From positions 1-52,287 of IMG/VR virus record IMGVR_UViG_3300035659_000020: DNA of 52,287 bases; one strand, 5' to 3'. Source of the stretch: a virus (Duplodnaviria > Caudoviricetes). The notes beneath the pieces are model-generated. The model ran no database searches and had not been told where the DNA came from. It saw only the letters and a list, made by a program, of their open reading frames with translations. The number at the start of each line of letters is the position of its first letter. Within the stretch, counting starts at the first letter, position 1. Below, piece by piece: positions 4,174-46,725 of the stretch. The position numbers and the translations under genes are program-made.

Positions 4174-4247
4174 TACCTCCAATGAGACTCGGACTCATAA
4201 CCTACTGTTTAAGAGACAGTTGCTCTTACCAATTGAGCTATAGAGGT
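4174..4247 (-). tRNA. tRNA-Lys(CTT)
   Basis: Cloverleaf; ACTGT-CTCTTAA-ACAGT; T loop TCCGAGT. Confidence 0.9.
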
Positions 4248-4250
4248 TGG

Positions 4251-4325
4251 ATGCACAGGCTGGACTTTCACCAACATCTTCTATCTGTAAGGGATAGAAT
4301 ATCCTAATAATTAGACGACCATGCC
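4251..4325 (-). tRNA. Atypical tRNA-like gene, 7-bp anticodon stem, loop CCTTACA (TTA centred; possibly degenerate Val TAC)
   Basis: Weak acceptor GGCATGG/CTGTGCA, T arm GTTGG-TGAAAGT-CCAGC, stem TTCTATC/GATAGAA. Confidence 0.55.
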
Positions 4326-4331
4326 ATACAG

Positions 4332-4403
4332 TGGAGCTTAAGAGAATTGCACTCTTATTTGGTGGATGCAAATCACCTGTTCTACTAATTGGACTAAAGC
4401 CCC
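4332..4403 (-). tRNA. tRNA-Ala(TGC)
   Basis: GGGGCTT/AAGCTCC with G3:U70; loop TTTGCAT. Confidence 0.9.
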
Positions 4404-4524
4404 AAGTTATTACTTACATATTATACTGTACTTTTTCTAAAATAACATTAACACTTTATGAGTATTTTCTCATCCCATTTTAATCTAATGTTTGAGATTT
4501 TATGTTATTAAAAAAAACCAGAAG

Positions 4525-4597
4525 AGCGTCTAAAGGGATTCGCACCCTTACCCGATGGTTGGAAGCCACACATGCTACTGTTGAACACCATAGACGC
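4525..4597 (-). tRNA. tRNA-Gly(TCC)
   Basis: GCGTCTA/TAGACGC-T; loop CTTCCAA. Confidence 0.9.
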
Positions 4598-4601
4598 ATA
4601 A

Positions 4602-4684
4602 GGCAAGGCTCGATTCGCATTTCGCTCAATTACAGCCGATATTGTTGCCTACCCGCCGCGACTTGATAGGCTAGACACCTTGCC
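4602..4684 (-). ncRNA. Unclassified structured RNA closed by a 7-bp acceptor-like stem
   Basis: GGCAAGG/CCTTGCC ends, internal GCCTATC/GGTAGGC hairpin; lies between tRNA-Lys(TTT) and tRNA-Gly with 3-4 nt spacers. Confidence 0.45.
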
Positions 4685-4687
4685 ATG

Positions 4688-4758
4688 TACTCCTGACTGG
4701 ACTCGAACCAGCCTTGGCAGATTAAAAGTCTGCTGCTCAACCTCTGAGCCACAGGAGT
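4688..4758 (-). tRNA. tRNA-Lys(TTT)
   Basis: GCAGA-CTTTTAA-TCTGC; T loop TTCGAGT. Confidence 0.92.
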
Positions 4759-4831
4759 ATTTATTTAGTTATTATGGGTGCAGGCTGTAGGATTACCTAC
4801 AAAATCTGTACCTTTAGTTTCATATATTCTC

Positions 4832-5416
4832 CTAGAGGCAAGCACCAGAGTCGAACTGGTTACTGGTCACTTTTGCAGAGTGCTCCCTTACCGTTTGGGA
4901 TGCAAGCCTAAAATCAACAATTGGTTTTAATGTTGCCATTTTTTTCTTTACTTCTTCTAAAGATAAAGGATAGAAATTCCAGCAATCAACTCCAACATCA
5001 AATGATAATCCATATGGAACAAGCATTCCGTGATGATGACCATATAAATGCCAACTAGCATAATGAGAAAGTTCCCAGGAACGCATGGCATAATGACATA
5101 GAGTAATAGATATTTGATTACCATATTCATCTAATAAACCATCAGGCTTAATCACAAGCATTCGTGGTTCTTTTATATCATGGTCATGACTACCCTTGAT
5201 ACGGATAATATTTCCGTTGAGTCTATTCAAATATTTATTTGGATTAACAAAAGAAAAATCTCCTAAATCATAAACAGTATCTTCTGGCTTTACTTTTGAA
5301 TTAAAATAATTAATGAGTTTTCCATCCATTTCATCTATTGACTTGAATGGTCTATTAGAAAACCTGATTATATTCTTATGTCCTAAGTGCATATCCGCTG
5401 TAAAATAGATTGTCAT
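4832..5416 (-). CDS. Calcineurin-like metallophosphoesterase
   Basis: DMHLGH, LGDF, GSHD, CHYA, GHHH, DVGVD motifs. Confidence 0.88.
   Translation of the reverse strand: MTIYFTADMHLGHKNIIRFSNRPFKSIDEMDGKLINYFNSKVKPEDTVYDLGDFSFVNPNKYLNRLNGNIIRIKGSHDHDIKEPRMLVIKPDGLLDEYGNQISITLCHYAMRSWELSHYASWHLYGHHHGMLVPYGLSFDVGVDCWNFYPLSLEEVKKKMATLKPIVDFRLASQTVREHSAKVTSNQFDSGACL
4836..4908 (-). tRNA. tRNA-Cys(GCA)
   Basis: CACT-CTGCAAA-AGTG, U73; two U-U mismatches in acceptor; inside the 3' end of the upstream CDS. Confidence 0.8.
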
Positions 5417-5439
5417 TCTTATTCCTTACCATTTAATAT

Positions 5440-6426
5440 CTAAGCCAATTTTTTGACGCTACCTGTGCCTGTTTCTACCCAAGCAGCGTTCTTCTGCAAT
5501 TCTTTTATATTACCAGCATTGAGATATGTAAAAGCACTTCTCATGCCCCAAATATATTCTGATATTAAATCTGCTAACAAAATATCTTTTACTACTTCTT
5601 TCTCCAAACCTTCTACAGATTTTACGGAATGATAATATTCTTCTTGTAATTTTCTAGATGCTTGTCCATATATTATACCATTGTTTGCAGATTCATATGT
5701 TCTAGCAAAAGGTGTTCCCATCATAAGAACATCTGCACCCATAGCTAATGCCTTGACAGCATCTCCTGAATTTCTAATACCACCATCACATACTATAATA
5801 GCATCTACATCTTTGCAATTATCAATAGCAGTTAGTTGTGGAACACCTACACCAGTAACATTTCTAGTTGTACATAAAGTACCATTCCCTATGCCCACTC
5901 TAATCATATCTGCACCAGCATTTGCAAGAATTTTTGCAGAATCATATGTAGCTACATTTCCTACCATAAGTAAAGTCCTAAATTGATTATGTTTTATAAT
6001 AAATTTTACAGTCTTTACCCATTTACTTACTGATTCAAGATTACCATTAGCTACGTCTATACATATAATTGAAGGATTATATTCTAGAATGCCCAAGCCA
6101 TCCATATCATCTAATCCTATTGATACACCATAATTTCTACACTCAGGCATAATTTCTAATATAATTTTCTTAGCTTGTTTTAAATTTTCTTTATGGTCAT
6201 CATTATTAAAAAATCTATGCAAAATTCCTATCCCACCCATTTTAGATATTCCAATCATTAATTCGGGTGAGATAATTCCTTTCATTGGTGATGCTATAAA
6301 TGGTATAGATAGCTTTAGATTAGAACCAAGTCTAGTTCCTAAACAAACAATATCTCTACTATTTACAGTAGATGGTCTTGGAACTAATAGTAAATCATCA
6401 AAATCATAACCTTTTGTTACTTTCAT
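5440..6426 (-). CDS. GMP reductase / IMPDH family protein without CBS domains
   Basis: DFDDLLLVP, ASPM, GGIGILHR, IDVANG, GNVAT, RVGIGNGTLCTTR, DGGIRNSGDAVKALAMGAD. Confidence 0.88.
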   Translation of the reverse strand: MKVTKGYDFDDLLLVPRPSTVNSRDIVCLGTRLGSNLKLSIPFIASPMKGIISPELMIGISKMGGIGILHRFFNNDDHKENLKQAKKIILEIMPECRNYGVSIGLDDMDGLGILEYNPSIICIDVANGNLESVSKWVKTVKFIIKHNQFRTLLMVGNVATYDSAKILANAGADMIRVGIGNGTLCTTRNVTGVGVPQLTAIDNCKDVDAIIVCDGGIRNSGDAVKALAMGADVLMMGTPFARTYESANNGIIYGQASRKLQEEYYHSVKSVEGLEKEVVKDILLADLISEYIWGMRSAFTYLNAGNIKELQKNAAWVETGTGSVKKLA

Positions 6427-6932
6427 AATCCAACTTCCTGCCAATTATTTATTCTAAAAGGCCAATACCAATTTACATTCCAGGGTTGTGTAAAGATATA
6501 TCCTACTCCACCAAATGTTCTAACATTATCAATATTATCATCTATTAAATACTCTGCTCTAATCAATGACTTGTCTGAGCATTCTACATAATCTTGTATT
6601 CTAGTAATAAAATTATATTTCTTTAACCAGTTATATTTGACACCTGAGACTTCTATAGGGGTTGTAGTTACATATATAATTCTATATTTTTTAGATAATT
6701 TTTTTATAGTTTCTAGAGCATCTGGAATTGGTTTAATATTTTCATAAAGAGTTGGGTCTTTTAGATATTCATATATTTTTATTCCACACACTGGTTTTAC
6801 CAGCATATGAATATCCCAAGTTGTCCAATCATCTTTAGTCATAGTGTCATTATAATCTTTATTATAACGTCTTAACCATTCTACATGATTGGCAGCAATT
6901 ACACCATCTACATCAACTGCTAGTATTTTCAT
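6423..6932 (-). CDS. 5'(3')-deoxyribonucleotidase (HAD, NT5C family)
   Basis: DVDGV, KYNWLKKY, LIDDN, PWN motifs; start after AAGGAG-like RBS. Confidence 0.88.
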   Translation of the reverse strand: MKILAVDVDGVIAANHVEWLRRYNKDYNDTMTKDDWTTWDIHMLVKPVCGIKIYEYLKDPTLYENIKPIPDALETIKKLSKKYRIIYVTTTPIEVSGVKYNWLKKYNFITRIQDYVECSDKSLIRAEYLIDDNIDNVRTFGGVGYIFTQPWNVNWYWPFRINNWQEVGL

Positions 6933-6951
6933 CCTTTTGTTTCTCCTTAAG

Positions 6952-7036
6952 AGGAACAGGTAGGGATTGCACCTACGCACCCTGCAGGGTGGCTACTGTT
7001 TAGCAAACAGGCACATTACTACTCTGTCACTATTCC
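6952..7036 (-). tRNA. tRNA-Ser(GCT)
   Basis: Loop TTGCTAA, long variable arm ACCCTGCAGGGT. Confidence 0.88.
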
Positions 7037-7128
7037 TTGTCATTTTTATTATTTCTATATATTATACATACCCATATAATTAATATAAATGTTAATATAA
7101 CTGTAGCATGTGACATATATAACTCCTG

Positions 7129-7203
7129 TACCACCTCTTGGAATTGCACCAAGGCCTTCTGTTCTTCAGACAGACGCACAATAACTACCTATGCAAAAGT
7201 GGC
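7129..7203 (-). tRNA. tRNA-Phe(GAA)
   Basis: TCTGT-CTGAAGA-ACAGA. Confidence 0.85.
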
Positions 7204-7207
7204 GTAG

Positions 7208-7278
7208 TGGGGATGACAGGAGTCGAACCCGTCTTCTGTGGTCGAAAGCCACGAGTACTGCCGATATACGACATCCCC
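7208..7278 (-). tRNA. tRNA-Glu(TTC)
   Basis: GTGG-CTTTCGA-CCAC; GGGGATG/CATCCCC. Confidence 0.9.
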
Positions 7279-7282
7279 AAGG

Positions 7283-7363
7283 TGGAAGTGGTTGGATTTG
7301 CACCAGCAAAGCCGAGGCACCTGTTCTACAGACAGGCGGTAGTCCTGCCCTACCATCACTTCC
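7283..7363 (-). tRNA. tRNA-Tyr(GTA)
   Basis: CCTGT-CTGTAGA-ACAGG; variable arm; 5-bp D stem GGTAG/CTACC. Confidence 0.85.
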
Positions 7364-7370
7364 ATATTAC

Positions 7371-8441
7371 TTATTTCAAATAATATACTTCTACTCCAGC
7401 CCAACCATTAGCATCAGAGTAACAAGTAGCAATCTTATACTCATTACCATCTGGATATACTCCATAAGGTAAGAAAACTCTTCTTACTACAACAAAAGTA
7501 TAATTATTTATAATTACTGTATCTCCAACTTCAATATGAAGCCAACCAGTTTTCCAAAGTCTATGAACCCACATAGTATTTTGATAAACAGATGCTCCAT
7601 AAGTAGTAGATGGTAATAATAATGTTCCATTAGCATCTGACATGCCACTATAAAGTATGAAATGAACACCATCTATAACTGCTGTACCTAAGTAATCACC
7701 TGTAAAATCCACCTCATCAATTACATAAGCTGGAGATGGGGGCTTAGGTGTAGCTGTTAAAGTATTTATTGGTGTAACTGTCGGAACCACAGTCGAAGTC
7801 TCAGTAGGGTCAACCGTATTTGTTGGAGTCGAAGTTTCCGTTGTAACTGGTGTGCTAGTCTGAGTTGGTGTTTGAGTTCTTGTTGCTGTTGCCGTACTCG
7901 TTGATTGAGTTCCTGTAGATGTGATAGTAGGTGTATTTGTAACATACGTAGCCGTCCTTGTGGGGGTATTCATTGGTGTATTTGTTAATGTACTAGTTGG
8001 TGTAATAACAGTAGGTGTTTTTGTCGGAGTATTAGTAGGTGTTTCTGTATAAACATCTGTAGATGTTGAAGTAGGAAATGGTGTATCTGTAGGAGTACCA
8101 TCAATACAATGACTTAACTTCAAAAACCCTTCTCCCAAATCACCAATGTAATCAGCATAAACACTGGTATTATTATTTACATAACCTTCACTATCTGCTG
8201 ACCAAGAACCTCCACCACTTTGATGCATAGCACCGTTCCAAGAACCAACAGTTAAACTAGCACCAGTTATATTTAAACTATTACCAGATAAAACCCAATG
8301 TGTTCCATACTGGCAGGGTTCTGTATATCCTTGCCCATCCCAATACACACGCCCATCCCATGCTAGGGCAGATGATACAGTTATAAGTAATATTCCTATA
8401 ACTCCAAACATGGCTGCAATAAAAATTAACATTTTTTTCAT
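7371..8441 (-). CDS. Secreted protein: signal peptide, small N-terminal domain, Thr/Pro linker, C-terminal sortase-like domain
   Basis: [12 protein letters not shown]...SSALA signal; TPT repeats; WVHR...EVGDTVII...KIATCY resembles the sortase His and TLxTC layout. Confidence 0.65.
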
Positions 8442-8457
8442 ATATTTTCCTTTCAGG

Positions 8458-8528
8458 TGGGAATGAGGAGATTCAAACTCCTGTGATGTGGTCGAGAGCC
8501 ACATATCCTGTCTCTAGATTACATTCCC
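8458..8528 (-). tRNA. tRNA-Glu(CTC)
   Basis: TGTGG-CTCTCGA-CCACA. Confidence 0.88.
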
Positions 8529-8532
8529 AAAG

Positions 8533-8604
8533 TTGAGGGAGAGAGAGTCGAACTCCCACGAAACACGTTATAAGCATGTAGACATTCCAAGTGTCATTCC
8601 CTCA
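8533..8604 (-). tRNA. tRNA-Ile(TAT)
   Basis: ACATG-CTTATAA-CGTGT; TGAGGGA/TCCCTCA; similar body to the Ile(GAT) gene. Confidence 0.85.
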
Positions 8605-8612
8605 GTTTATAT

Positions 8613-8641
8613 ATTATATCATATTGTTAAGGTTCTGTCAA
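8613..8641 (-). promoter_or_regulatory. Consensus sigma70/sigmaA promoter with extended -10
   Basis: TTGACA-17 nt-TATAAT preceded by TG, just upstream of tRNA-Ile(TAT). Confidence 0.9.
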
Positions 8642-8647
8642 GAGATG

Positions 8648-8793
8648 AATCAATCTGGTATTCAGGTCGCTCAATTGTGTAATGCACTTCCTCTCTCGAT
8701 TTATACCAGTTCGGAGAGTGAGGGGGTTGTCTGACCCACCGCCCTACACTTACGTCTTAGTGACGCGTTGCCCAAGATTATACCAGATTGATT
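8648..8793 (-). ncRNA. Unclassified ~146-nt structured RNA
   Basis: Terminal inverted repeat AATCAATCTGGTA/TACCAGATTGATT, nested stems, GC-rich, directly after tRNA-Met. Confidence 0.6.
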
Positions 8794-8796
8794 AGG

Positions 8797-8869
8797 TAGC
8801 AGAACTGGGATTCGAACCCAGGATGTGAGTTTATGAGGCTCATGACGTAGGCCACTGGTCTATTCTGCT
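8797..8869 (-). tRNA. tRNA-Met(CAT)
   Basis: TGAGC-CTCATAA-ACTCA; T arm CTGGG-TTCGAAT-CCCAG. Confidence 0.88.
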
Positions 8870-8962
8870 ATGTCGTATTTCATTCTCAACAATTCTATCC
8901 ATTCTTTTCTTTTTGCAAGAGTTTCTTTTACATAAATATATTTATTCATATTGTCTCCGCAG

Positions 8963-9034
8963 TTGAGGAAGAGAGAGTTGCACTCCCATGTGTCGCCGTA
9001 TCAGGACGATGGCTTTCTGGTTGCCTATTCCTCA
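8963..9034 (-). tRNA. tRNA-Ile(GAT)
   Basis: TCGTC-CTGATAC-GGCGA. Confidence 0.85.
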
Positions 9035-9250
9035 CTAATCCATACTGAAATATACAAATGCTGTATTATCATCATTCCATACCACATTGTTTAATAAGAT
9101 TGACCAACCTTTAAAGAATTTCTTTCCATGTTCTTTAGCTATAGTTTCAGCATCATGTCTATTATAAGTTCTACATAGTCTGATTTCTTTATCACTACAT
9201 CCCATTACACAAGGTCTTTCATAAATTATAATAAATAATTCTTCTTCCAT
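9035..9250 (-). CDS. Hypothetical protein
   Basis: AAGGAG RBS before MEEELF; the longer track ORF runs through tRNA-Val. Confidence 0.6.
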   Translation of the reverse strand: MEEELFIIIYERPCVMGCSDKEIRLCRTYNRHDAETIAKEHGKKFFKGWSILLNNVVWNDDNTAFVYFSMD

Positions 9251-9266
9251 ATGTTTCTCCTTTAGG

Positions 9267-9340
9267 TGGACTTGGCAAGGCTCGAACTTGCGACTTCTTT
9301 CTTGTAGGGGAAGTGTACTCACCAACTATACGACAAGTCC
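9267..9340 (-). tRNA. tRNA-Val(TAC)
   Basis: GGACTTG/CAAGTCC-A; loop CCTACAA (C33). Confidence 0.85.
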
Positions 9341-9412
9341 TGGGTGCGGTTTATCTAGTGCACTAGGAGATACTCCACCCAACCACCAAGTCTTTTTAGT
9401 ATCTCTGTAAGG

Positions 9413-9485
9413 TTGCAGAAGTGAGATTTGAACTCACGCCACATGCTTCCAACGCACGGATGCTACCAGACTACAACATTCCGCA
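9413..9485 (-). tRNA. tRNA-Pro(TGG)
   Basis: CGTGC-GTTGGAA-GCATG. Confidence 0.85.
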
Positions 9486-9486
9486 G

Positions 9487-9560
9487 AGTCTCCAGCGAGA
9501 GTCGGACTCGCAACCTTTAGCTTAGAAGGCTATTGCTCTATTCCATTGAGCTATGGAGAC
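9487..9560 (-). tRNA. tRNA-Arg(TCT)
   Basis: TAGC-CTTCTAA-GCTA; T loop TCCGACT. Confidence 0.9.
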
Positions 9561-9565
9561 ATAGG

Positions 9566-9639
9566 TGCTCTTGAGAGGAGTCGAACCTCCAGAATATTGG
9601 GTCTAAACCAATTGCATATGCCAATTCTGCTACAAGAGC
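9566..9639 (-). tRNA. tRNA-Leu(TAG), short variable loop
   Basis: ATTGG-TTTAGAC-CCAAT. Confidence 0.88.
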
Positions 9640-9642
9640 ATG

Positions 9643-9716
9643 TGCTGGTAACTGGAGTCGAACCAGTAAAATTCTATGTTTGAGATAGACACATATGCCA
9701 ATTCTGTTATACCAGC
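9643..9716 (-). tRNA. tRNA-Leu(CAA), short variable loop
   Basis: TCTAT-CTCAAAC-ATAGA. Confidence 0.88.
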
Positions 9717-9720
9717 AAGG

Positions 9721-9794
9721 TGCTCCTGAGTGGAGTCGAACCACCAAACACATTATCTTAAGTAATGCGGATATGCCAATTCTCCTACAAGAGC
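9721..9794 (-). tRNA. tRNA-Leu(TAA), short variable loop
   Basis: CATTA-CTTAAGA-TAATG. Confidence 0.88.
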
Positions 9795-9953
9795 ATTTAT
9801 TTCTTTTTATTCTTCTTAGATTCTACCACAGGTACATTAAAATAACATGAATAGAACATTAGAGATTTGTGGTAATAAACATAATCAGCCGTATCAATAG
9901 GGATTTTGCTAGTTACCGTTCTAAACGAAGTATTTCTAGGCAGATTGGAAAGT

Positions 9954-10124
9954 TTAGTTAGAAGTATCATCAACCTCCAAACCATGTAGAGGGCAATCAG
10001 AAGTTATCCAAAATTCAGGCTTACCATTTTTATCAATGTATGCACCTTTACCATACTCATTATCCAATACTGGGCAAGTACAACCTAAATCTTGTGCTTC
10101 TTTACTACCAGGGTTTGGTATCAT
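9954..10124 (-). CDS. Small Cys/His (probable Zn-binding) phage protein, 56 aa
   Basis: Below track cutoff; AAGGAG RBS; MIPNPGSKEAQDLGCTCPVLDNEYGKG...FWITSDCPLHG. Confidence 0.7.
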   Translation of the reverse strand: MIPNPGSKEAQDLGCTCPVLDNEYGKGAYIDKNGKPEFWITSDCPLHGLEVDDTSN

Positions 10125-10138
10125 TTGATTCTCCTTAG

Positions 10139-10210
10139 AGCCTCTTCTCAGATTTGCGCTGAGTTTTTCACGTTACAAGGGTGACACATCGCTATCAATG
10201 CTTAAGAGGC
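10139..10210 (-). tRNA. tRNA-Thr(TGT)
   Basis: GCCTCTT/AAGAGGC; loop CTTGTAA. Confidence 0.85.
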
Positions 10211-10215
10211 AGAGG

Positions 10216-10287
10216 CTGGCACGACTAGACTCGGACTAATACTAAGTGATTCAAAGTCACTTGTGCTACCGATTACACCACATGCCA
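10216..10287 (-). tRNA. tRNA-Gln(TTG)
   Basis: U1-A72; AGTGA-CTTTGAA-TCACT; T loop TCCGAGT. Confidence 0.88.
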
Positions 10288-10292
10288 ATAAG

Positions 10293-10375
10293 AGGAAGAT
10301 AACTGAATTGCACAGTCACCCTTTCGGATGGTCTAGTTTTCAAGACTAGTTAGGAACTATTTCCTACTATCTTCC
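10293..10375 (-). tRNA. tRNA-Ser(TGA)
   Basis: CTAGT-CTTGAAA-ACTAG; long variable arm with GAAA loop; D arm TAGGA/TCCTA without GG loop. Confidence 0.85.
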
Positions 10376-10376
10376 A

Positions 10377-10691
10377 TTATAAAATATAATTCTTTAGTTG
10401 TTTTTGATGACAATTAGCACAACGTAACTCAAATTTATCTAAATCTTCTTTACCAATAATTATTCTATCTGTAAGTCTAGCACCACTATCAAGACTACCA
10501 TAATTACTATCTTTACGAGTACGTAAAACAGGTATCTTATGGTCTATTTGTAAAACTCTTACATCAGAGTTTCCACAATCTATACATTTTCCACCTAACA
10601 AATCAATCACAGTCTGTCTACGTTTAACAATCTGTTCTCTTCTCCATAGACGTTGAAATTCTTTTTGTTTTTGTATATCTTTATATGGCAT
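10377..10691 (-). CDS. HNH endonuclease
   Basis: CIDCG...LQIDH...CANCH. Confidence 0.85.
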   Translation of the reverse strand: MPYKDIQKQKEFQRLWRREQIVKRRQTVIDLLGGKCIDCGNSDVRVLQIDHKIPVLRTRKDSNYGSLDSGARLTDRIIIGKEDLDKFELRCANCHQKQLKNYIL

Positions 10692-10713
10692 TATGTAACC
10701 TCACATTCTTAGG

Positions 10714-10794
10714 TGGAGCTGGCGGGGAGTCGAACCCCGCGTATCCAGTAATAGTAGTAATAATATACACCACACGGCGAACCCGTACAGCCCC
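10714..10794 (-). ncRNA. Mini-tmRNA: tRNA-like domain only, no tag reading frame or pseudoknots
   Basis: 5' GGGGCTGTACGGGTTCG and 3' ACGCGGGGTTCGACTCCCCGCCAGCTCCA-CC match tmRNA ends; G3:U70; no D stem; about 30-nt hairpin between the ends. Confidence 0.75.
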
Positions 10795-10871
10795 AAACGT
10801 TTGTTTTCTACGCAGTAAATTACCCTATGAAAACATACAGTCTCTCAGTGATAGAGCAGTGACCCACTAGG

Positions 10872-10942
10872 CGGAGACAGCGAATCTCGAAATCGCACCA
10901 ACACTTCGACAAAGTGCCATTCTTCCTTTAAACTATGCCTCC
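10872..10942 (-). tRNA. tRNA-Asp(GTC)
   Basis: GCACT-TTGTCGA-AGTGT; G73. Confidence 0.87.
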
Positions 10943-11009
10943 AATAAAGACAAGGATAAGGTCTGATTGTCCTCTACATCTTATATCTGCTATAAAGCCT
11001 TGTCTATAG

Positions 11010-11083
11010 AGTGCCCGACAGGATTTGAACCTGTATTTATCTTGATTCACAGTCAAGTGCCTTACCAGTTAGGCTACGGGTAC
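11010..11083 (-). tRNA. tRNA-His(GTG)
   Basis: CTTGA-CTGTGAA-TCAAG. Confidence 0.88.
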
Positions 11084-11089
11084 ACTATT

Positions 11090-11326
11090 TTATTCTTTAG
11101 TACTATCAACAGCTTCTATTTCAACATCATAGAAGTTGTAATCTAATACAGCTTTTAGCTCTTTCTTTACTTTATCAAATTGTATAAGGATATCTTTATT
11201 GGCTTCAAAGGCATCTTTATTTTGTACAACTACAGCTTTCATCAAGTCCATATCCTCAATATATTTCTTGACAGTTTTAATCATAAAGTTTCTAATTGCA
11301 TGTACGTTTCCAGCTTTTTCTTCCAT
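11090..11326 (-). CDS. Hypothetical helical protein
   Basis: AAGGAG RBS; ORF between tRNAs. Confidence 0.6.
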   Translation of the reverse strand: MEEKAGNVHAIRNFMIKTVKKYIEDMDLMKAVVVQNKDAFEANKDILIQFDKVKKELKAVLDYNFYDVEIEAVDSTKE

Positions 11327-11345
11327 GTTTTATTTCTCCTTCAGG

Positions 11346-11416
11346 CAGGTCGGGAGCGACTTGAACGCTCAATAAATGTTTTGGAGACACCCAGTTTACC
11401 ATTAGCTTACCAACCT
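11346..11416 (-). tRNA. tRNA-Trp(CCA)
   Basis: AGGTTGG/CCGACCT-G; loop CTCCAAA. Confidence 0.88.
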
Positions 11417-11421
11417 ACAGG

Positions 11422-11494
11422 CGGGTGAGGAAGGGATTGCACCTCCAACCTTACGGTTAACAGCCGTCTGCTCTGACTGTTGAGCTACACACCC
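11422..11494 (-). tRNA. tRNA-Asn(GTT)
   Basis: ACGG-CTGTTAA-CCGT; G73. Confidence 0.88.
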
Positions 11495-11506
11495 ACTTAT
11501 TACTAT

Positions 11507-11534
11507 ATTATACCACAACTTAGGATTTTGTCAA
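11507..11534 (-). promoter_or_regulatory. sigma70/sigmaA promoter at the head of the tRNA array
   Basis: TTGACA-16 nt-TATAAT with TG, 12 nt upstream of tRNA-Asn. Confidence 0.85.
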
Positions 11535-11753
11535 GGGTTTAGCAGTTATCTTTTGACCTTTTGGCAACAGATTACCACCATTCATCAAATAAATAGGGGC
11601 TATTTTACCCCATAATCCTTGTGGAACAAGCATCTTACCTCTGTTCTTCCCAAATATAGGAAATTTTAATCCTATTAAAGATTTAAATTTATTATCTGTA
11701 CACTGTTTATAAAATAATATTACTCTTGTATCATCTATTATTTTATAGTTCAT
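11520..11753 (-). CDS. Hypothetical protein
   Basis: Start overlaps upstream stop. Confidence 0.45.
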   Translation of the reverse strand: MNYKIIDDTRVILFYKQCTDNKFKSLIGLKFPIFGKNRGKMLVPQGLWGKIAPIYLMNGGNLLPKGQKITAKPLTKS

Positions 11754-12225: not shown

Positions 12226-12589
12226 TAGTTCCTGGTACTAAAATCGCAGGAAAATTTTCTTCTTCTCCTAAGGATTGTTCCATTCTTGTCCCCATCTCAA
12301 TTACAAATTCAGGAGAATTAATATAGTTATTAAGGGCTATCATAACAGTAGCCAAAGCAGAATCAGAATTAATATCATAGCCTTTTACATTCATAGCAAC
12401 TTCTCCCCAATGCTTTCCATCTGCTGAAGAACCTACTTGCATAGTACCATTAGCTTTCCACATATTATCAGGCTCTTTAGCAGTATGAATAGTCAATTGC
12501 ATATAATGTGATTGTATATCTCTTAACATAGCACCATATTTATCTATCATGGTTTCATCAACTTTTTCTACAGACTTCTTTTGTCCCAT
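12218..12589 (-). CDS. Hypothetical protein
   Basis: Coupled ORF. Confidence 0.55.
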   Translation of the reverse strand: MGQKKSVEKVDETMIDKYGAMLRDIQSHYMQLTIHTAKEPDNMWKANGTMQVGSSADGKHWGEVAMNVKGYDINSDSALATVMIALNNYINSPEFVIEMGTRMEQSLGEEENFPAILVPGTNE

Positions 12590-13200
12590 TTTGTGTACTC
12601 CTCAATTCTATTGTGTAACTTTTCTAATATGATTACATCTTCTTCATTGTGAGATAAGACTTCTTTTAGTGCTTTCTTATCTCCATATTGTGCTAGAAAC
12701 CATACTGCGGGGTCTAGGTTATTCTTACCATCTATCCCTAAGAATTCAGTTACAACTCCTAGAGATTTTCTATGTAGAGAAAATAATCTCTTTGCCTTGA
12801 AATACAAATCCCAATGATATATCTGACCAAATTTTGGAAAAGGTAATCTCCATCTTTCTGAACGTGTTCGTAAGAATGGTATATCAAAACCTGTTCCATA
12901 GTAAGTAACTACAATATCTACACTTTCTAATAAATCTAGTAACTCTTTCACTATTCTTTTATCAAACGTACCACTACTTATATCTTTCTGTGTTATAACT
13001 TCTGAATAAATATGTTTATCATCTTTAAACTTCACACACCATGTTAATACTATTCCAAAATTTGCTTTCAAATCACTTGTTTCTATATCCAGATAAGCTA
13101 TCTTTTTATCAGACCACCAATCATATTTTATTAAACCTTTTCTAAAGCAATTCGGATGAGTTCTTATGGTGTGTCTATGTATACATCTTTGTTCACTCAT
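12568..13200 (-). CDS. DEDD-superfamily 3'-5' exonuclease (YprB/RNase_H_2-like)
   Basis: LDIET, TYYGTGFDIPFL, HWDL, HNEEDV. Confidence 0.85.
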   Translation of the reverse strand: MSEQRCIHRHTIRTHPNCFRKGLIKYDWWSDKKIAYLDIETSDLKANFGIVLTWCVKFKDDKHIYSEVITQKDISSGTFDKRIVKELLDLLESVDIVVTYYGTGFDIPFLRTRSERWRLPFPKFGQIYHWDLYFKAKRLFSLHRKSLGVVTEFLGIDGKNNLDPAVWFLAQYGDKKALKEVLSHNEEDVIILEKLHNRIEEYTKWDKRSL

Positions 13201-28145: not shown

Positions 28146-28717
28146 TGGCTATTATATGGATTGGTAATCAACCACAGACTATATTTTCTAGCACAGTTGC
28201 AGGTGGATTTGAAAATTGGTTAACAAATTATATTTGTATTGATATACAAGCATTTGGAACTACTGTATTTTCAGGGATTTCATATAAATCAGTTTATATT
28301 GAAGGTACTGCTCAAATACTTCTTCCCGATAGTGATATTACAGTAGGGTCTTGGAAAAATGAATCTAGTGGTTCTGTATTATATCCATCTTTAGAGGATA
28401 ACAGTGATTCTACTTATGCTTGGTATAACCATGCTGTAGTTAATGATTATTTTGAGGTTAGTTTAGATAATCCACCAAGTACACCCTCTGCAACAGCACA
28501 TACAATATTATGGAGAGCTTATAAGAAAGCAGGAATTCAAACTGTAACTCTGAAATGTGAGCTTAGACAAGGTGCATCTACTGTAATTGCTTCTGATACA
28601 CAAACGATGACAACCAGTGTAGTCGAATTTCATAAAGCATTAACATCTGGGGAAATATCTAATATTAGTAATTACAATGATTTACGTATTCGCGTAACGA
28701 TAATGTCAGTGACATAA
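28145..28717 (+). CDS. Virion protein homologous to the C-terminal domain of the 1402-aa protein
   Basis: Shared P.SDIT.GSWKNE..GS.LYPSL.D.SDS.YAWY...WRAYKK.GIQ.VTLKCE..QG...DLR.RVTI. Confidence 0.75.
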   Translation: MAIIWIGNQPQTIFSSTVAGGFENWLTNYICIDIQAFGTTVFSGISYKSVYIEGTAQILLPDSDITVGSWKNESSGSVLYPSLEDNSDSTYAWYNHAVVNDYFEVSLDNPPSTPSATAHTILWRAYKKAGIQTVTLKCELRQGASTVIASDTQTMTTSVVEFHKALTSGEISNISNYNDLRIRVTIMSVT

Positions 28718-41358: not shown

Positions 41359-42034
41359 TTTATGTATACCAACACTAAATAGGTATGATTTATTAATAAG
41401 ATGTTTAGAATCAGCGGAAGCTGGAACACTAAAACCTACAGCTTATTATATAATTGACAATGGAATGAATTTAGATTTGAATACTATACCAAAAGAATTT
41501 GGAAATAGAGTTTATATAGCAAAAGTAAAATATAATTTAGGAGTAGCTAGAAGTTGGAACTGGTTTATTGATAATATAAAAGACCATATTATTTTTTGTA
41601 ATGATGATATAGAATTCTATGAAGATTCTATTGAAAAATTAATGAGTGGTTATGATGAAAATTTTGCAATTTATCCTGCAATTGGCTCAACATCATTCTC
41701 TTTAATACAATTTCCTAGAAAGATATTTGAAGATGTAGGATATTTTGATGAGGGTATATCCCCCTTTTATGCCTATTTTGAAGATAATGATTATCACTAT
41801 AGAATGAAATTAAAAGGATATGATATAAAATCTATAAATGGTTGTAAAGTAAAACATGTGGGAAGTGCTACCATTAAAAAATTTACCATTCTAGAGCAAA
41901 ATATGCATCACGGTAAATTTGAGGCAGCAAAATATAGATATCTTATAAAGTGGGGTGGAATTCCTGGTAAGGAAAAATTCACAGAACCATTTGATGGGAA
42001 AGAAAATGGCATTACAAGAAAAGATAACTCCTGA
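41348..42034 (+). CDS. GT2-like glycosyltransferase
   Basis: IPTLNR, IIDNG, NLGVARSWN, NDDI, GYFDE, YFEDNDY, HVGSAT. Confidence 0.88.
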   Translation: MEFNLCIPTLNRYDLLIRCLESAEAGTLKPTAYYIIDNGMNLDLNTIPKEFGNRVYIAKVKYNLGVARSWNWFIDNIKDHIIFCNDDIEFYEDSIEKLMSGYDENFAIYPAIGSTSFSLIQFPRKIFEDVGYFDEGISPFYAYFEDNDYHYRMKLKGYDIKSINGCKVKHVGSATIKKFTILEQNMHHGKFEAAKYRYLIKWGGIPGKEKFTEPFDGKENGITRKDNS

Positions 42035-46149: not shown

Positions 46150-46725
46150 ATGGAAATCAATAAATATACAGATATTATCGGTGTTGTAGTGTGTGGCGAC
46201 ATCGTTGAAGGCAGAATGGTTCAATTAACCAGCCAAAGTTCTAGTCATCTTTGGGGGAGCAGAGAAGACTTAATGGGAGTAAGACTTCCAAGAACTGACG
46301 CGGAAGCTCAATTAGCTAAGTACATTGTTACTTGGCCTGTAAATAACTCTCAAGTAGATGACAATATTAAAATGTTAGTGCCATTCCCACACTATGATTG
46401 GTCACTAAGACGAGGTGCTTTTGAGCAAGCAGGAAATGTTCCATTCACCTCTGAAATTTACATGACTTACCCTGGAAATCAAAATGGGGTAACAATCCCT
46501 TCAGGTTACTTAGCATTAGCCTTTGATAGAGGCGTTTTCACTGTTCCTTCAGGTGGATTTGTATTCTCAGCTAATATTATGGCTGCTGGTGCACCACTAG
46601 AAGTATTAAATATCAATGATGACACAACTAATGCTGGTAAATTAGCTTACGCAGGCGGTGGTACTATCGCTATAGTTGAGCGGTTCAATTCTGATGATGG
46701 TTCCTTAACCTTCAGAACACTATAA
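46150..46725 (+). CDS. Probable head decoration/cement protein
   Basis: Position between scaffold and capsid. Confidence 0.55.
   Translation: MEINKYTDIIGVVVCGDIVEGRMVQLTSQSSSHLWGSREDLMGVRLPRTDAEAQLAKYIVTWPVNNSQVDDNIKMLVPFPHYDWSLRRGAFEQAGNVPFTSEIYMTYPGNQNGVTIPSGYLALAFDRGVFTVPSGGFVFSANIMAAGAPLEVLNINDDTTNAGKLAYAGGGTIAIVERFNSDDGSLTFRTL

What the first reader, a model, noticed from the sequence alone, without database searches (positions are those of the whole stretch)
10714..10794. Tag-less mini-tmRNA (tRNA-like domain only) in the phage tRNA array
Seen: the minus strand reads GGGGCTG TACGGGTTCG CCGTGTGGTGTA TATTAT TACTACTATTACTGG ATAC GCGGGG TTCGACT CCCCGC CAGCTCC A-CC. It has an Ala acceptor with G3:U70 and A73, an unpaired D-loop-like segment, a short connector and an intact T arm (6 bp rather than 5). 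Established: this is the layout of tmRNA 5' and 3' ends, where SmpB binds; normal tmRNA carries ~270 nt of pseudoknots and tag frame between them, and tag-less tmRNAs are known from some protist mitochondria. Here only a ~30-nt hairpin joins the ends, and a normal tRNA-Ala exists separately at 4332. Inference: an alanylated SmpB decoy that blocks host trans-translation, or a rescue RNA that frees stalled ribosomes without a degradation tag. Either could help against defences that cut tRNA or mRNA.
Basis: partly seen in the sequence, partly recalled or inferred. Interest (0 to 1): 0.88.

Follow-up and report, generated by a model that had tools for sequence, protein, structure and literature searches.

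The report
Phage tag-less mini-tmRNA gene
This is an 83-base phage RNA gene that keeps only the tRNA-like end of the bacterial ribosome-rescue RNA (tmRNA); one mycobacteriophage is already known to carry such a gene, here it proves common in uncultured phages, and it probably interferes with the host's rescue-and-tagging system.

Summary
On the minus strand, 10794-10712 holds a 7-bp acceptor stem with G3:U70 and A73, a tmRNA-type D-loop, a 33-nt bulged hairpin and a T arm. There is no tag frame and no pseudoknot. Rfam's tmRNA model matches both ends (41.3 bits; gathering score 47), and 35 nt stand where 326 model positions should be.

It is not a one-off deletion. A syntenic relative phage and two further metagenome variants carry the same kind of gene with compensatory base changes. 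Their structure covaries strongly: 97% of cells paired against 68% in shuffles.

A model built only from those viral sequences scores the published "TLD only" tmRNA of mycobacteriophage DS6A at 65 bits and this element at 36 bits. So the kind is already known; this is a new and divergent member. It alone among 85 has a 6-bp T stem.

None of 45 carrier records encodes SmpB. The most likely role is competition with host tmRNA for SmpB, and perhaps for stalled ribosomes. Citing papers report that a similar RNA inhibits tmRNA in E. coli. Tag-free rescue remains a live rival. Expression, charging and binding are untested.

The parts
10712..10794 (-). Mini-tmRNA gene (tRNA-like domain only): 81 nt from G1 to discriminator A (10714), plus encoded CC (10713-10712); the next base is T, so CCA is incomplete
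   Evidence: Sequence. RF00023 23.0 bits and 41.3 bits. Family model R1 36.0 bits, E 2.9e-6, against 26.8 bits for the best tRNA in the window.
10788..10794 (-). Acceptor stem, 5' strand GGGGCUG (G3 at 10792)
   Evidence: Pairs 7 of 7 with 10715-10721. G3:U70 is present in 85 of 85 family sequences.
10778..10787 (-). D-loop-like segment UACGGGUUCG (tmRNA-type deformed D arm, no D stem)
   Evidence: Aligned to the GGaUUCG D-loop block of RF00023. GGNUUCG is invariant in the family, but the search pattern imposed it.
10745..10777 (-). Central hairpin in the place of helix 2 plus the whole mRNA-like/pseudoknot body: 12 bp with three 1-nt bulges, loop UAUUAU, AT-rich
   Evidence: Constrained fold. 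The equivalent helix covaries at 7 of 7 pairs in the family. In this element the sequence is unlike that of its sisters.
10741..10744 (-). Linker AUAC (most of the core family GAC, sisters AAC)
   Evidence: Alignments.
10722..10740 (-). T arm GCGGGG-UUCGACU-CCCCGC: 6-bp stem, 7-nt T loop
   Evidence: A 6-bp stem occurs in 1 of 85 family sequences, this one.
10715..10721 (-). Acceptor stem, 3' strand CAGCUCC (U70 at 10717)
11507..11534 (-). Promoter-like site TTGACA-16 nt-TATAAT (12 of 12, TG extension) ahead of tRNA-Asn; the likely start of the transcript that runs through Asn, Trp, a 78-aa ORF, His, Asp and the mini-tmRNA
   Evidence: This is a consensus match only; 11 sites were found against 8.1 expected in shuffles, and this is the only 12-of-12 site.
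10870..10942 (-). tRNA-Asp, the next gene upstream on the same strand (75-nt spacer)
10377..10691 (-). HNH endonuclease ORF (104 aa); its start codon lies 20 nt after the encoded CC (10712)
   Evidence: Pfam PF01844, E 2.5e-5.
4331..4403 (-). Ordinary tRNA-Ala(UGC) of the same array, so the element is not the phage's tRNA-Ala

Best explanation
The element is a functional gene for a tRNA-like-domain-only tmRNA, the same kind of RNA as the 'TLD only' tmRNA of mycobacteriophage DS6A.

How it is probably made (inferred): it is transcribed with the phage tRNA operon and cut out by the tRNA-processing enzymes. Its 3' end is completed to CCA, as it must be for the 20 ARAGORN-called tRNAs of the array, none of which encodes a full CCA.

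How it probably acts (inferred): host AlaRS charges it with alanine through G3:U70 and A73. Its open D-loop and T-arm elbow bind the host's SmpB, since the phage fragment encodes none. Having no resume codon, tag frame or pseudoknots, it cannot tag proteins. By occupying SmpB, and probably also EF-Tu and the empty A site of stalled ribosomes, it competes with the host tmRNA. That lowers ssrA tagging and the degradation that follows during infection.

Shown here: the anatomy, homology, conservation and covariation, and the absence of SmpB genes. Inferred: expression, charging, SmpB binding and the effect on the host.
For: (1) RF00023 matches both ends only.

(2) It is conserved, not a one-off. 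The syntenic relative L005 (exonuclease 79% aa identity) has a 78-nt homologue scoring 47.9 bits, over gathering. It lies between the same flanking ORF homologues. Metagenome contigs add two more variants, L198 (= L207) and L232, and an identical copy, L197. Among these, acceptor pair 5-68 is C-G, G-C or A-U. The second T-stem pair is C-G, U-A or A-U. The helix-2 base is CCGCU/AGCGG or CCGUA/UACGG.

(3) It belongs to a large viral family. On the 86-row alignment, 97.2% of cells pair, against 68.0% in shuffles (0 of 500 shuffles reach it) and 43-54% when partners are slid. 16 of 22 pairs show double changes, and helix 2 covaries at 7 of 7 pairs.

(4) Model R1, built only from 27 viral sequences, scores DS6A's published element at 65.1 bits and this one at 36.0 bits. 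The best tRNA in the window scores 26.8.

(5) Alanine identity is kept. U70 occurs in 85 of 85 and A73 in 85 of 85, and my pattern imposed neither. C72 and C71 are each 86 of 86 rows, and position 69 is C in 79 and U in 7.

(6) No SmpB gene passes Pfam's cut-off in 0 of 45 carrier records, or in 0 of 14 records that are at least 90% complete.

(7) Literature, passages read. SmpB binds the TLD through the deformed D arm, and a 63-nt synthetic TLD hairpin co-crystallised with SmpB (PMC3985003). A molecule like DS6A's 'strongly' inhibits tmRNA in E. coli, 'perhaps acting by titrating SmpB' (PMC4131195; PMC11915505).

(8) Context: it sits in the tRNA array, downstream of a perfect consensus promoter and in the same orientation. 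Its tail A-CC-U has the same form (N73-CC-T) as 10 of the 20 tRNAs. The element's GC is 56% in a 33.9% GC window.
Against: Nothing here shows transcription, alanylation or SmpB binding.

This element is the weakest member of the set. It scores 36.0 bits, the lowest of 85 minis, and it is below Rfam's gathering score (41.3 against 47).

The junction motifs common in the family (UUCGAC...GGAC) read UUCGCC...AUAC here. The unconstrained MFE fold pairs the D-loop region, and the tmRNA-like fold is 3.9 kcal/mol worse.

The 6-bp T stem makes a 13-bp acceptor/T stack. It is unique among the 85 and could disturb binding of EF-Tu or SmpB.

Strict retention of G3:U70 and A73 is not needed for a pure SmpB sponge. 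The citing paper says the inhibition held 'whether or not chargeable'. So the RNA probably goes further along the pathway than simple titration.

2 of 45 carrier records also encode a full-length tmRNA (376 and 392 nt). 3 of 5 bacterial genomes with a mini also have a normal tmRNA. That fits poorly with a simple 'switch tagging off' role.

The host is unknown.
Confidence: 0.6

Rival explanations
1. Tag-free ribosome rescue. The alanyl mini-tmRNA, with host SmpB and EF-Tu, enters ribosomes stalled on broken mRNAs (for example after attack by host RNases) and accepts the nascent chain. Because it has no reading frame, the peptidyl-Ala-RNA is then released by another factor or by drop-off. Ribosomes are freed without marking phage proteins for proteolysis.
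For: Alanine identity elements are kept in 85 of 85 sequences, although a sponge would not need them. [quoted passage not shown] Tag-less mitochondrial tmRNAs co-occur with SmpB and are thought still to help with incomplete mRNAs (PMC11915505). In 9 of 85 representative loci the mini lies between the prohead protease and major capsid genes on the same strand, that is, in the most heavily translated late operon.
Against: No release factor-like (PF00472) or peptidyl-tRNA hydrolase (PF01195) gene was found in this record or its sister: 0 of 2, both fragments. No recurrent partner gene lies next to minis across the family; the largest neighbour cluster covers 9 of 85 loci and is structural. The review PMC3985003 argues that RNAs lacking a tag region cannot perform bacterial-type trans-translation. 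The only experiment I found reported describes inhibition, not rescue.
Confidence: 0.25
2. A tRNA-like element with a job unrelated to trans-translation. It could be a processing signal for RNase P or RNase Z that separates the tRNAs from the downstream HNH mRNA. It could instead be a decoy for host nucleases or other tRNA-binding defence proteins.
For: It lies directly between tRNA-Asp and an ORF whose start codon is 20 nt after the encoded CC. 18 of 85 family representatives have a tRNA within 500 nt. Phage proteins are known to use tRNA and tmRNA fragments against defence nucleases (AcrIIIA1, PMC11662646; passages read).
Against: A mere processing signal would not need the tmRNA-specific D-loop block, G3:U70 and A73, which are held in 85 of 85. 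It would not need a covarying helix 2 either. 67 of 85 representatives have no tRNA in the stored locus. The element scores higher on tmRNA-based models than any tRNA in the window does.
Confidence: 0.08
3. An inert remnant: a decayed tmRNA or tRNA-Ala gene, a fragment picked up from a host ssrA attachment site, or an assembly artefact with an internal deletion.
For: It is below Rfam's gathering score. The tmRNA database curators reject 'large internal deletions' in metagenome assemblies as artefacts (PMC11915505). tmRNA genes are common integration sites (same paper).
Against: The identical 84 nt occur in an independent metagenome contig (L197). Sister phages keep the fold through compensatory changes. 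The family shows strong covariation. An attachment-site fragment would carry only the 3' part, not a joined and folded 5' end. The element sits in a tRNA operon of a phage fragment in which the calls made here found no integrase, although not every ORF was annotated.
Confidence: 0.05

Closest known systems
'TLD only' tmRNA of Mycobacterium phage DS6A (tmRNA Website entry; JN698994 28478-28560)
   Same: Phage-encoded and about 80 nt. It has an acceptor stem with G3:U70 and A73, an open tmRNA-type D-loop, a single hairpin in place of the mRNA-like body, and a T arm, with no tag frame. It is recognised by the same family model (65.1 bits for DS6A, 36.0 bits here) and by RF00023 at a similar sub-threshold score (43.2 against 41.3 bits).
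   Different: DS6A's element has the family's conserved inner hairpin (AAAACC-GCACG-CGG type) and a 5-bp T stem. It stands alone between two protein genes in a GC-rich temperate phage that has an integrase. The window's element has an AT-rich bulged hairpin, a 6-bp T stem and a UUCGCC junction. It lies inside a 22-tRNA array of a 34% GC phage with no close cultured relative: the best PolA match in the phage collection is 31% identity.
Standard bacterial tmRNA (Rfam RF00023), including the full-length or two-piece tmRNAs of phages (Bxz1-type mycobacteriophages, phage G, Melnitz, Lacusarx, PA_L9)
   Same: The 5' and 3' ends are homologous: acceptor, D-loop block, T arm and discriminator.
   Different: It lacks the resume codon, tag reading frame and pseudoknots: 35 nt stand in place of 326 model positions. 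ARAGORN does not call it.
Tag-less tmRNAs of jakobid and oomycete mitochondria and of some plastids (about 65 nt in Mallomonadaceae)
   Same: Natural tmRNA derivatives without a tag frame, which act, if they act, with an SmpB encoded elsewhere (PMC11915505 and PMC3985003; passages read).
   Different: Those are organellar, usually permuted two-piece genes, and they are the organelle's only tmRNA. Here the gene is viral, one-piece, and would act alongside the host's intact tmRNA.
Synthetic TLD fragments used for SmpB co-crystals (T. thermophilus: 5' 25 and 3' 34 residues joined by a UUCG loop)
   Same: The same design, with the two tmRNA ends joined by a capped helix 2. This shows that such an RNA suffices to bind SmpB (PMC3985003 figure legend).
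   Different: It is an artificial construct lacking the CCA end. No binding data exist for this natural sequence.
tRNA-Ala
   Same: G3:U70, A73, a 7-bp acceptor stem and a canonical T loop.
   Different: It has no D stem and no anticodon arm. Neither ARAGORN nor Rfam's gathering-score search calls a tRNA here, and the array has its own tRNA-Ala at 4331-4403.

Membership tests
tmRNA tRNA-like domain (ends of Rfam RF00023) | 7-bp acceptor stem with G3:U70 and discriminator A73 (AlaRS identity) | tested here: met
   GGGGCUG/CAGCUCC followed by A. That G-U at the third pair is completely conserved in tmRNA comes from PMC3985003.
tmRNA tRNA-like domain (ends of Rfam RF00023) | Deformed D arm: a conserved GGaUUCG-type loop without a D stem | tested here: met
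   ACGGGUUCG aligns to that block of the model. Caveat: the unconstrained MFE fold pairs ACGG with CCGU.
tmRNA tRNA-like domain (ends of Rfam RF00023) | T arm with a GGUUCGANUCC loop consensus, stacked on the acceptor stem | tested here: met
   GCGGGG-UUCGACU-CCCCGC. The stem is 6 bp rather than 5, found in 1 of 85.
tmRNA tRNA-like domain (ends of Rfam RF00023) | Score at or above Rfam's gathering threshold (47 bits) | tested here: not met
   41.3 bits and 23.0 bits. The published DS6A element is also below threshold (43.2), while 41 of 45 carrier records have a match above it.
Complete (tagging) tmRNA | Resume codon, tag reading frame ending in a stop codon, and pseudoknots | tested here: not met
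   35 nt stand in place of 326 model positions. There is no stop codon in the central 33 nt and no ARAGORN tmRNA call. It is therefore not filed as a complete tmRNA.
DS6A-type TLD-only tmRNA (family model R1 built here) | End-to-end match to the family covariance model, scoring above tRNAs | tested here: met
   36.0 bits, E 2.9e-6, model 1-82 of 82. The best tRNA in the window scores 26.8 bits. It is the lowest of the 85 minis.
DS6A-type TLD-only tmRNA (family model R1 built here) | Helix 2 closed by a short conserved inner hairpin (AAAACC-GCAUG-CGG type) and a GAC linker | tested here: not met
   The inner hairpin is absent. It is replaced by an AT-rich 12-bp bulged hairpin, and the linker is AUAC. 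The sisters L005, L198 and L232 have yet another inner hairpin (UGGGUUCAUCCA). This is why I describe the element as a divergent sub-branch.
DS6A-type TLD-only tmRNA (family model R1 built here) | Conserved in related phages, with compensatory changes | tested here: met
   L005 (= L172), L198 (= L207) and L232.
Functional tmRNA-SmpB partner | Binds SmpB, is charged by AlaRS and is delivered by EF-Tu | not testable with these tools
   No RNA-protein prediction or assay was available. No SmpB gene was found in 45 carrier records, so a host partner would be needed.
Canonical tRNA (RF00005) | Cloverleaf with a D stem and an anticodon arm | tested here: not met
   Not called by ARAGORN or by Rfam at gathering score. 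The central hairpin loop has 6 or 8 nt, not a 7-nt anticodon loop.

The most novel reading that the evidence does not exclude
TLD-only tmRNAs are not a curiosity of one mycobacteriophage. They would be a widespread, selectively maintained class of phage RNA that must be alanine-charged to work. With host SmpB they would enter stalled ribosomes and redirect rescue away from ssrA tagging, protecting phage proteins when host defences or heavy late translation break mRNAs. The window's sub-branch, with its 13-bp acceptor/T stack, would be a variant tuned to hold SmpB or AlaRS while avoiding normal EF-Tu delivery. That last idea comes from recalled knowledge of tRNA-Sec geometry and was not tested.
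Probability: 0.3. Interest if true: 0.75.

Novelty: new member of a known kind. Interest (0 to 1): 0.5.

Why it matters
Trans-translation is the main ribosome-rescue and protein-quality system of bacteria. How phages deal with it is known only in fragments.

A single phage example of a tag-less tmRNA has been in the tmRNA database since at least 2014, with one inhibition experiment attributed to Mao et al. 2009.
- The window's element is a real, conserved gene of that kind.
- A simple scan recovers at least 83 further distinct genes of the design from uncultured viral contigs, with textbook covariation and invariant alanine identity.
- None of the 45 carrier records searched brings its own SmpB.

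That turns a database footnote into a testable question: do many phages reprogramme host ribosome rescue with an 80-nt RNA, and do they do it by titration or by tag-free rescue? The seven literature searches found no paper describing such a family. The tmRNA database paper counts only 9 'Standard, no CDS' sequences in all, but I could not open its supplementary tables.

Tried and rejected
Searches for close DNA relatives among cultured phages found little.
- Megablast of 10400-11100 gave no match.
- Distant blastn of 10650-10870 gave three 32-nt partial matches. Two fell in Streptomyces phage HNH genes. One fell on the 3' end of an unannotated permuted tmRNA of Pseudomonas phage PA_L9.
- blastn with a marine-type mini (L014) found nothing, and blastn with DS6A's element found only DS6A records. 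BLAST is too insensitive for this family, so how many cultured phages carry minis remains unknown.

Pattern scans that gave little:
- (strict acceptor pattern) returned one GC-rich candidate, L003. It scores 26.4 bits on R1 and has no RF00023 match at E <= 1. I left it out of all counts.
- One search returned nothing because my pattern fixed 7 nt between the T loop and CUCCA, which excludes 5-bp T stems. That scan was wasted.
- (sub-branch pattern in IMG/VR) returned 5 stretches, and only the L005 contig is a mini.

Sequences dropped before counts:
- 11 of the 119 stretches lacked a perfect 7-bp acceptor stem at offset 3 or 4, or were cut by a locus end: L015, L018, L022, L026, L037, L041, L043, L049, L068, L079, L085.
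- L051 was dropped as a tRNA-Met preceded by a chance 5' match.
- Alignment A3 still contains one tRNA-like row (L062:1831-1904) among its 86 rows.

The MAFFT alignment A1 misplaced the 5' acceptor strand, so I did not use it for pair counts.

Expression: for window:9000-12500 no RNA holder was listed. This is no evidence either way.

The best PolA match is 31% identity. The Atlas's nearest clusters for the GMP-reductase-like protein are labelled mostly Ignavibacteriota, which is a weak lead only.

The 100% identity of the element between the window and L197 says nothing about selection, because the adjacent 75-nt spacer is also 75 of 75 identical.

Mao et al. 2009 is not held. What I say about it comes from passages in PMC4131195 and PMC11915505. 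The supplementary tables of PMC11915505 could not be seen; they would list the phage and 'no CDS' entries.

Papers: of all cited papers I read only the passages returned by 'find', never whole texts.
Full report
WHAT IS THERE

In RNA numbering (window coordinate = 10795 minus position) the parts are:
- 1-7 pair with 74-80 (GGGGCUG/CAGCUCC, with G3:U70).
- A81 is the discriminator. CC follows and then U, so CCA is not fully encoded.
- 8-17 (UACGGGUUCG) is the open, D-loop-like stretch.
- 18-50 is a hairpin.
- 51-54 (AUAC) is a linker.
- 55-73 is a T arm with a 6-bp stem and a canonical 7-nt loop.

ARAGORN finds 20 tRNAs in the array (4174-11494, all on the minus strand) and Rfam finds 20. Their union is 22, and neither calls this element a tRNA.

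Rfam's tmRNA model aligns to it from end to end, with 35 nt where the model has 326 positions. It scores 23.0 bits (E 8.1e-8) in the local search and 41.3 bits (E 8.6e-17) in the whole-record search. The gathering score is 47.

The window is a linear IMG/VR virus record, estimated 59% complete. It has 33.9% GC, while the element has 56%.

IT IS NOT A ONE-OFF DELETION

The exonuclease gene at 12568-13200 led to a related viral contig, L005, with 79% amino-acid identity. That contig has a 78-nt homologue at L005:12803-12880. It scores 47.9 bits on RF00023, above gathering. In both phages the RNA lies between homologues of the same two small ORFs: a 78- or 80-aa ORF upstream and a 56- or 55-aa ORF downstream.

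After filtering these included:
- an identical copy of the window's element (L197);
- an identical copy of L005's element (L172);
- two further variants, L198 (= L207) and L232.

In the model-based alignment of these the fold is kept by compensatory changes:
- Acceptor pair 5-68 is C-G, G-C or A-U.
- The second T-stem pair is C-G, U-A or A-U.
- The base of helix 2 is CCGCU/AGCGG or CCGUA/UACGG.

The central hairpin is not conserved in sequence. The three sister variants share an inner hairpin with a T-loop-like motif (UGGGUUCAUCCA). The window's element has an AT-rich 12-bp hairpin with three single-base bulges instead.

A LARGE VIRAL FAMILY

I scanned IMG/VR with a pattern that asks only for three things: GGGG..G, a GGNUUCG block, and a T-loop block 28-58 nt further on.

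108 of the 119 have a perfect 7-bp acceptor stem at the right distance. These give 84 distinct sequences, or 83 after removing one tRNA-Met artefact. With the window's element and L005 that makes 85.

Across the 85:
- Lengths run from 69 to 95 nt, median 79.
- U70 opposite G3 is present in 85 of 85 and discriminator A in 85 of 85. The pattern imposed neither.
- A full CCA is encoded in 25 of 85.
- A 5-bp T stem occurs in 84 of 85. The window's element is the single one with 6 bp.

RNAalifold on 27 core sequences predicts the acceptor stem, a 7-bp helix 2, a 3-bp distal stem and the T stem. 14 of its 24 pairs show compensatory changes.

I built covariance model R1 from those 27 sequences and aligned all members to it. 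On that alignment:
- 97.2% of cells are paired, against 68.0% in shuffles; 0 of 500 shuffles reach the observed value.
- When partners are slid by 1-3 columns, only 43-54% pair.
- 16 of 22 pairs have double changes.
- Helix 2 covaries at 7 of 7 pairs.

Three caveats apply. The alignment is fitted to the model. Acceptor pairing was my inclusion filter. The two inner T-stem pairs and the 5' GGGG were imposed by the pattern.

LINK TO THE PUBLISHED PRECEDENT

Passages in PMC4131195 list 'Mycobacterium phage DS6A (TLD only)'. [quoted passage not shown] They add that a similar molecule, chargeable or not, strongly inhibits tmRNA, perhaps by titrating SmpB (Mao et al. 2009).

PMC11915505 repeats this. 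It counts 79 bacteriophage tmRNA sequences and 9 'Standard, no CDS' sequences in the whole database.

I fetched the DS6A record. R1, which contains no DS6A sequence, finds one strong match at 28478-28560 with 65.1 bits. No feature is annotated there. It has the family's helix 2 and inner hairpin.

The viral family is therefore the DS6A type. The window's element matches the same model at 36.0 bits (E 2.9e-6), above every tRNA in the window; the best tRNA scores 26.8. It is nevertheless the lowest-scoring of the 85 minis. On RF00023 it scores much as DS6A does: 41.3 against 43.2 bits.

CONTEXT

A 12-of-12 consensus promoter with a TG extension lies at 11534-11507 on the same strand, just ahead of tRNA-Asn. 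The element is about 720 nt downstream of it. Between the two lie tRNA-Asn, tRNA-Trp, a 78-aa ORF, tRNA-His and tRNA-Asp.

An HNH endonuclease ORF starts 20 nt after the encoded CC.

None of the 20 ARAGORN tRNAs encodes a full CCA, and 10 of 20 end N73-CC-T just as the element does. The incomplete CCA is therefore normal for this array.

Across the family there is no universal neighbour.
- Clustering ORFs within 2.5 kb of 85 representatives gave largest clusters covering 9 loci each.
- In those nine loci, a prohead serine protease gene lies upstream and an HK97-type major capsid gene downstream, on the same strand as the mini (Pfam).
- 18 of 85 representatives have a tRNA within 500 nt. A few sit in large arrays of up to 17 tRNAs, and the window's array has 20.

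Searches of carrier records for partner genes:
- No SmpB gene passes Pfam's cut-off in any of 45 carrier records (44 viral records plus DS6A). That includes 0 of the 14 records that are at least 90% complete.
- Release-factor/ArfB-like, CCA-adding and peptidyl-tRNA hydrolase domains are absent from this record and its sister: 0 of 2, both fragments.
- 2 of the 45 records also carry a full-length tmRNA.

In GTDB genomes the same pattern mostly hits chance sequence. Of five such genomes checked, three also have a normal tmRNA.

HOW IT MOST LIKELY WORKS

Established, from passages in the review PMC3985003:
- SmpB binds the TLD through the deformed D arm. It protects tmRNA and enhances its alanylation.
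- G3:U70 is the AlaRS determinant.
- A 63-nt synthetic RNA made of the two tmRNA ends joined by a loop co-crystallises with SmpB.
- ArfA expression is held down by trans-translation.

From PMC3895274 (one passage): peptidyl transfer to a TLD-only tmRNA has been measured in vitro.

Inference. The phage RNA is processed like a tRNA, charged with alanine, and bound by host SmpB. Because it carries no message, it competes with host tmRNA and lowers tagging. I put this at about 0.6.

The invariance of the alanine identity set across a family that has diverged at most other paired positions argues that charging matters. That pushes towards action on the ribosome and keeps tag-free rescue alive, at about 0.25. 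Co-occurrence with full-length tmRNA in two viral records and three bacterial genomes argues against a crude 'off switch'.

The unique 6-bp T stem gives a 13-bp acceptor/T stack. From recalled knowledge of tRNA-Sec, such a stack can disfavour EF-Tu. Whether it matters here is open.

VERDICT

This is a real, conserved gene for a tag-less, TLD-only tmRNA. The kind is already in print for one phage, so I call this a new member of a known kind, belonging to a divergent sub-branch.

What I did not find in print in seven searches is how common the kind is in uncultured phages, or how strictly alanine identity is kept. The function remains untested.

Noticed in passing
They show strong covariation, and G3:U70 and A73 are invariant. 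41 of 45 carrier records have a match above Rfam's tmRNA gathering score, so pipelines may be labelling these as ordinary tmRNA.
   Followed up: yes
L130:538-4093, L014 and seven other loci: In 9 of 85 representative loci the mini-tmRNA sits between a prohead serine protease gene (Peptidase_S78) and an HK97-type major capsid gene on the same strand, that is, inside the late structural operon.
   Followed up: partly
Viral records G006 (88065-88440 and 41861-41933) and G009 (77588-77979 and 46486-46567): Two viral records carry both a full-length tmRNA (376 and 392 nt; 128 and 94 bits) and a mini-tmRNA.
   Followed up: no
L257, L262, L285, L355 (Candidatus Poribacteria MAGs); L270 (Saccharibacteria); L277 (Butyrivibrio); L309 (Nostoc): A few bacterial genomes carry mini-tmRNA-like genes. 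An 82-nt form (81 nt in L355) is nearly identical in three Poribacteria assemblies, and a fourth, untitled locus (L355) carries a close variant. Two of those assemblies, and the Butyrivibrio genome, also have a normal full-length tmRNA. In one Poribacteria MAG and in the 0.6-Mb Saccharibacteria MAG only the mini was detected.
   Followed up: partly
L364 (JN698994) 28478-28560: The published TLD-only tmRNA of phage DS6A has no feature annotated in the GenBank or RefSeq records. The same phage encodes an RtcB-like RNA ligase (gp76).
   Followed up: partly
L004 (PP869205, Pseudomonas phage PA_L9) 1435-1855: ARAGORN calls a permuted (two-piece) tmRNA with tag ANDTSFDVRLAA in a stretch that the record leaves unannotated.
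   Followed up: no
window 4174-11494, minus strand: The array holds 22 tRNA genes (20 from ARAGORN, plus 6952-7036 and 4525-4597 from Rfam only). They are interleaved with small ORFs, an HNH endonuclease, a GMP-reductase-like gene (5440-6444) and a 377-aa ORF (7371-8504) with a Pro/Thr-rich middle section. None of the 20 ARAGORN tRNAs encodes a full CCA, and 10 of them end N73-CC-T.
   Followed up: partly
L005:12803-12880, L198:2629-2707, L232:699-776: The sister mini-tmRNAs carry a second T-loop-like motif (UGGGUUCAUCCA) at the tip of their central hairpin. The window's element has replaced it with an AT-rich hairpin.
   Followed up: no
L197:1-3745 against window 8520-11709: A metagenome contig is about 89% identical to the tRNA array but differs in tRNA content. 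It has tRNA-Ile(GAT), and its tRNA-His and tRNA-Leu(TAA) are only 60% identical. The stretch from tRNA-Asp through the mini-tmRNA is almost unchanged, which suggests mosaic exchange within the array.
   Followed up: partly
L153 and L162 (metagenome contigs): An 83-nt tRNA-like sequence with acceptor stem UGUCAAU/AUUGACA, a GGGUUCG block and a T arm, but no G3:U70. It may be another kind of anticodon-less tRNA-like RNA.
   Followed up: no
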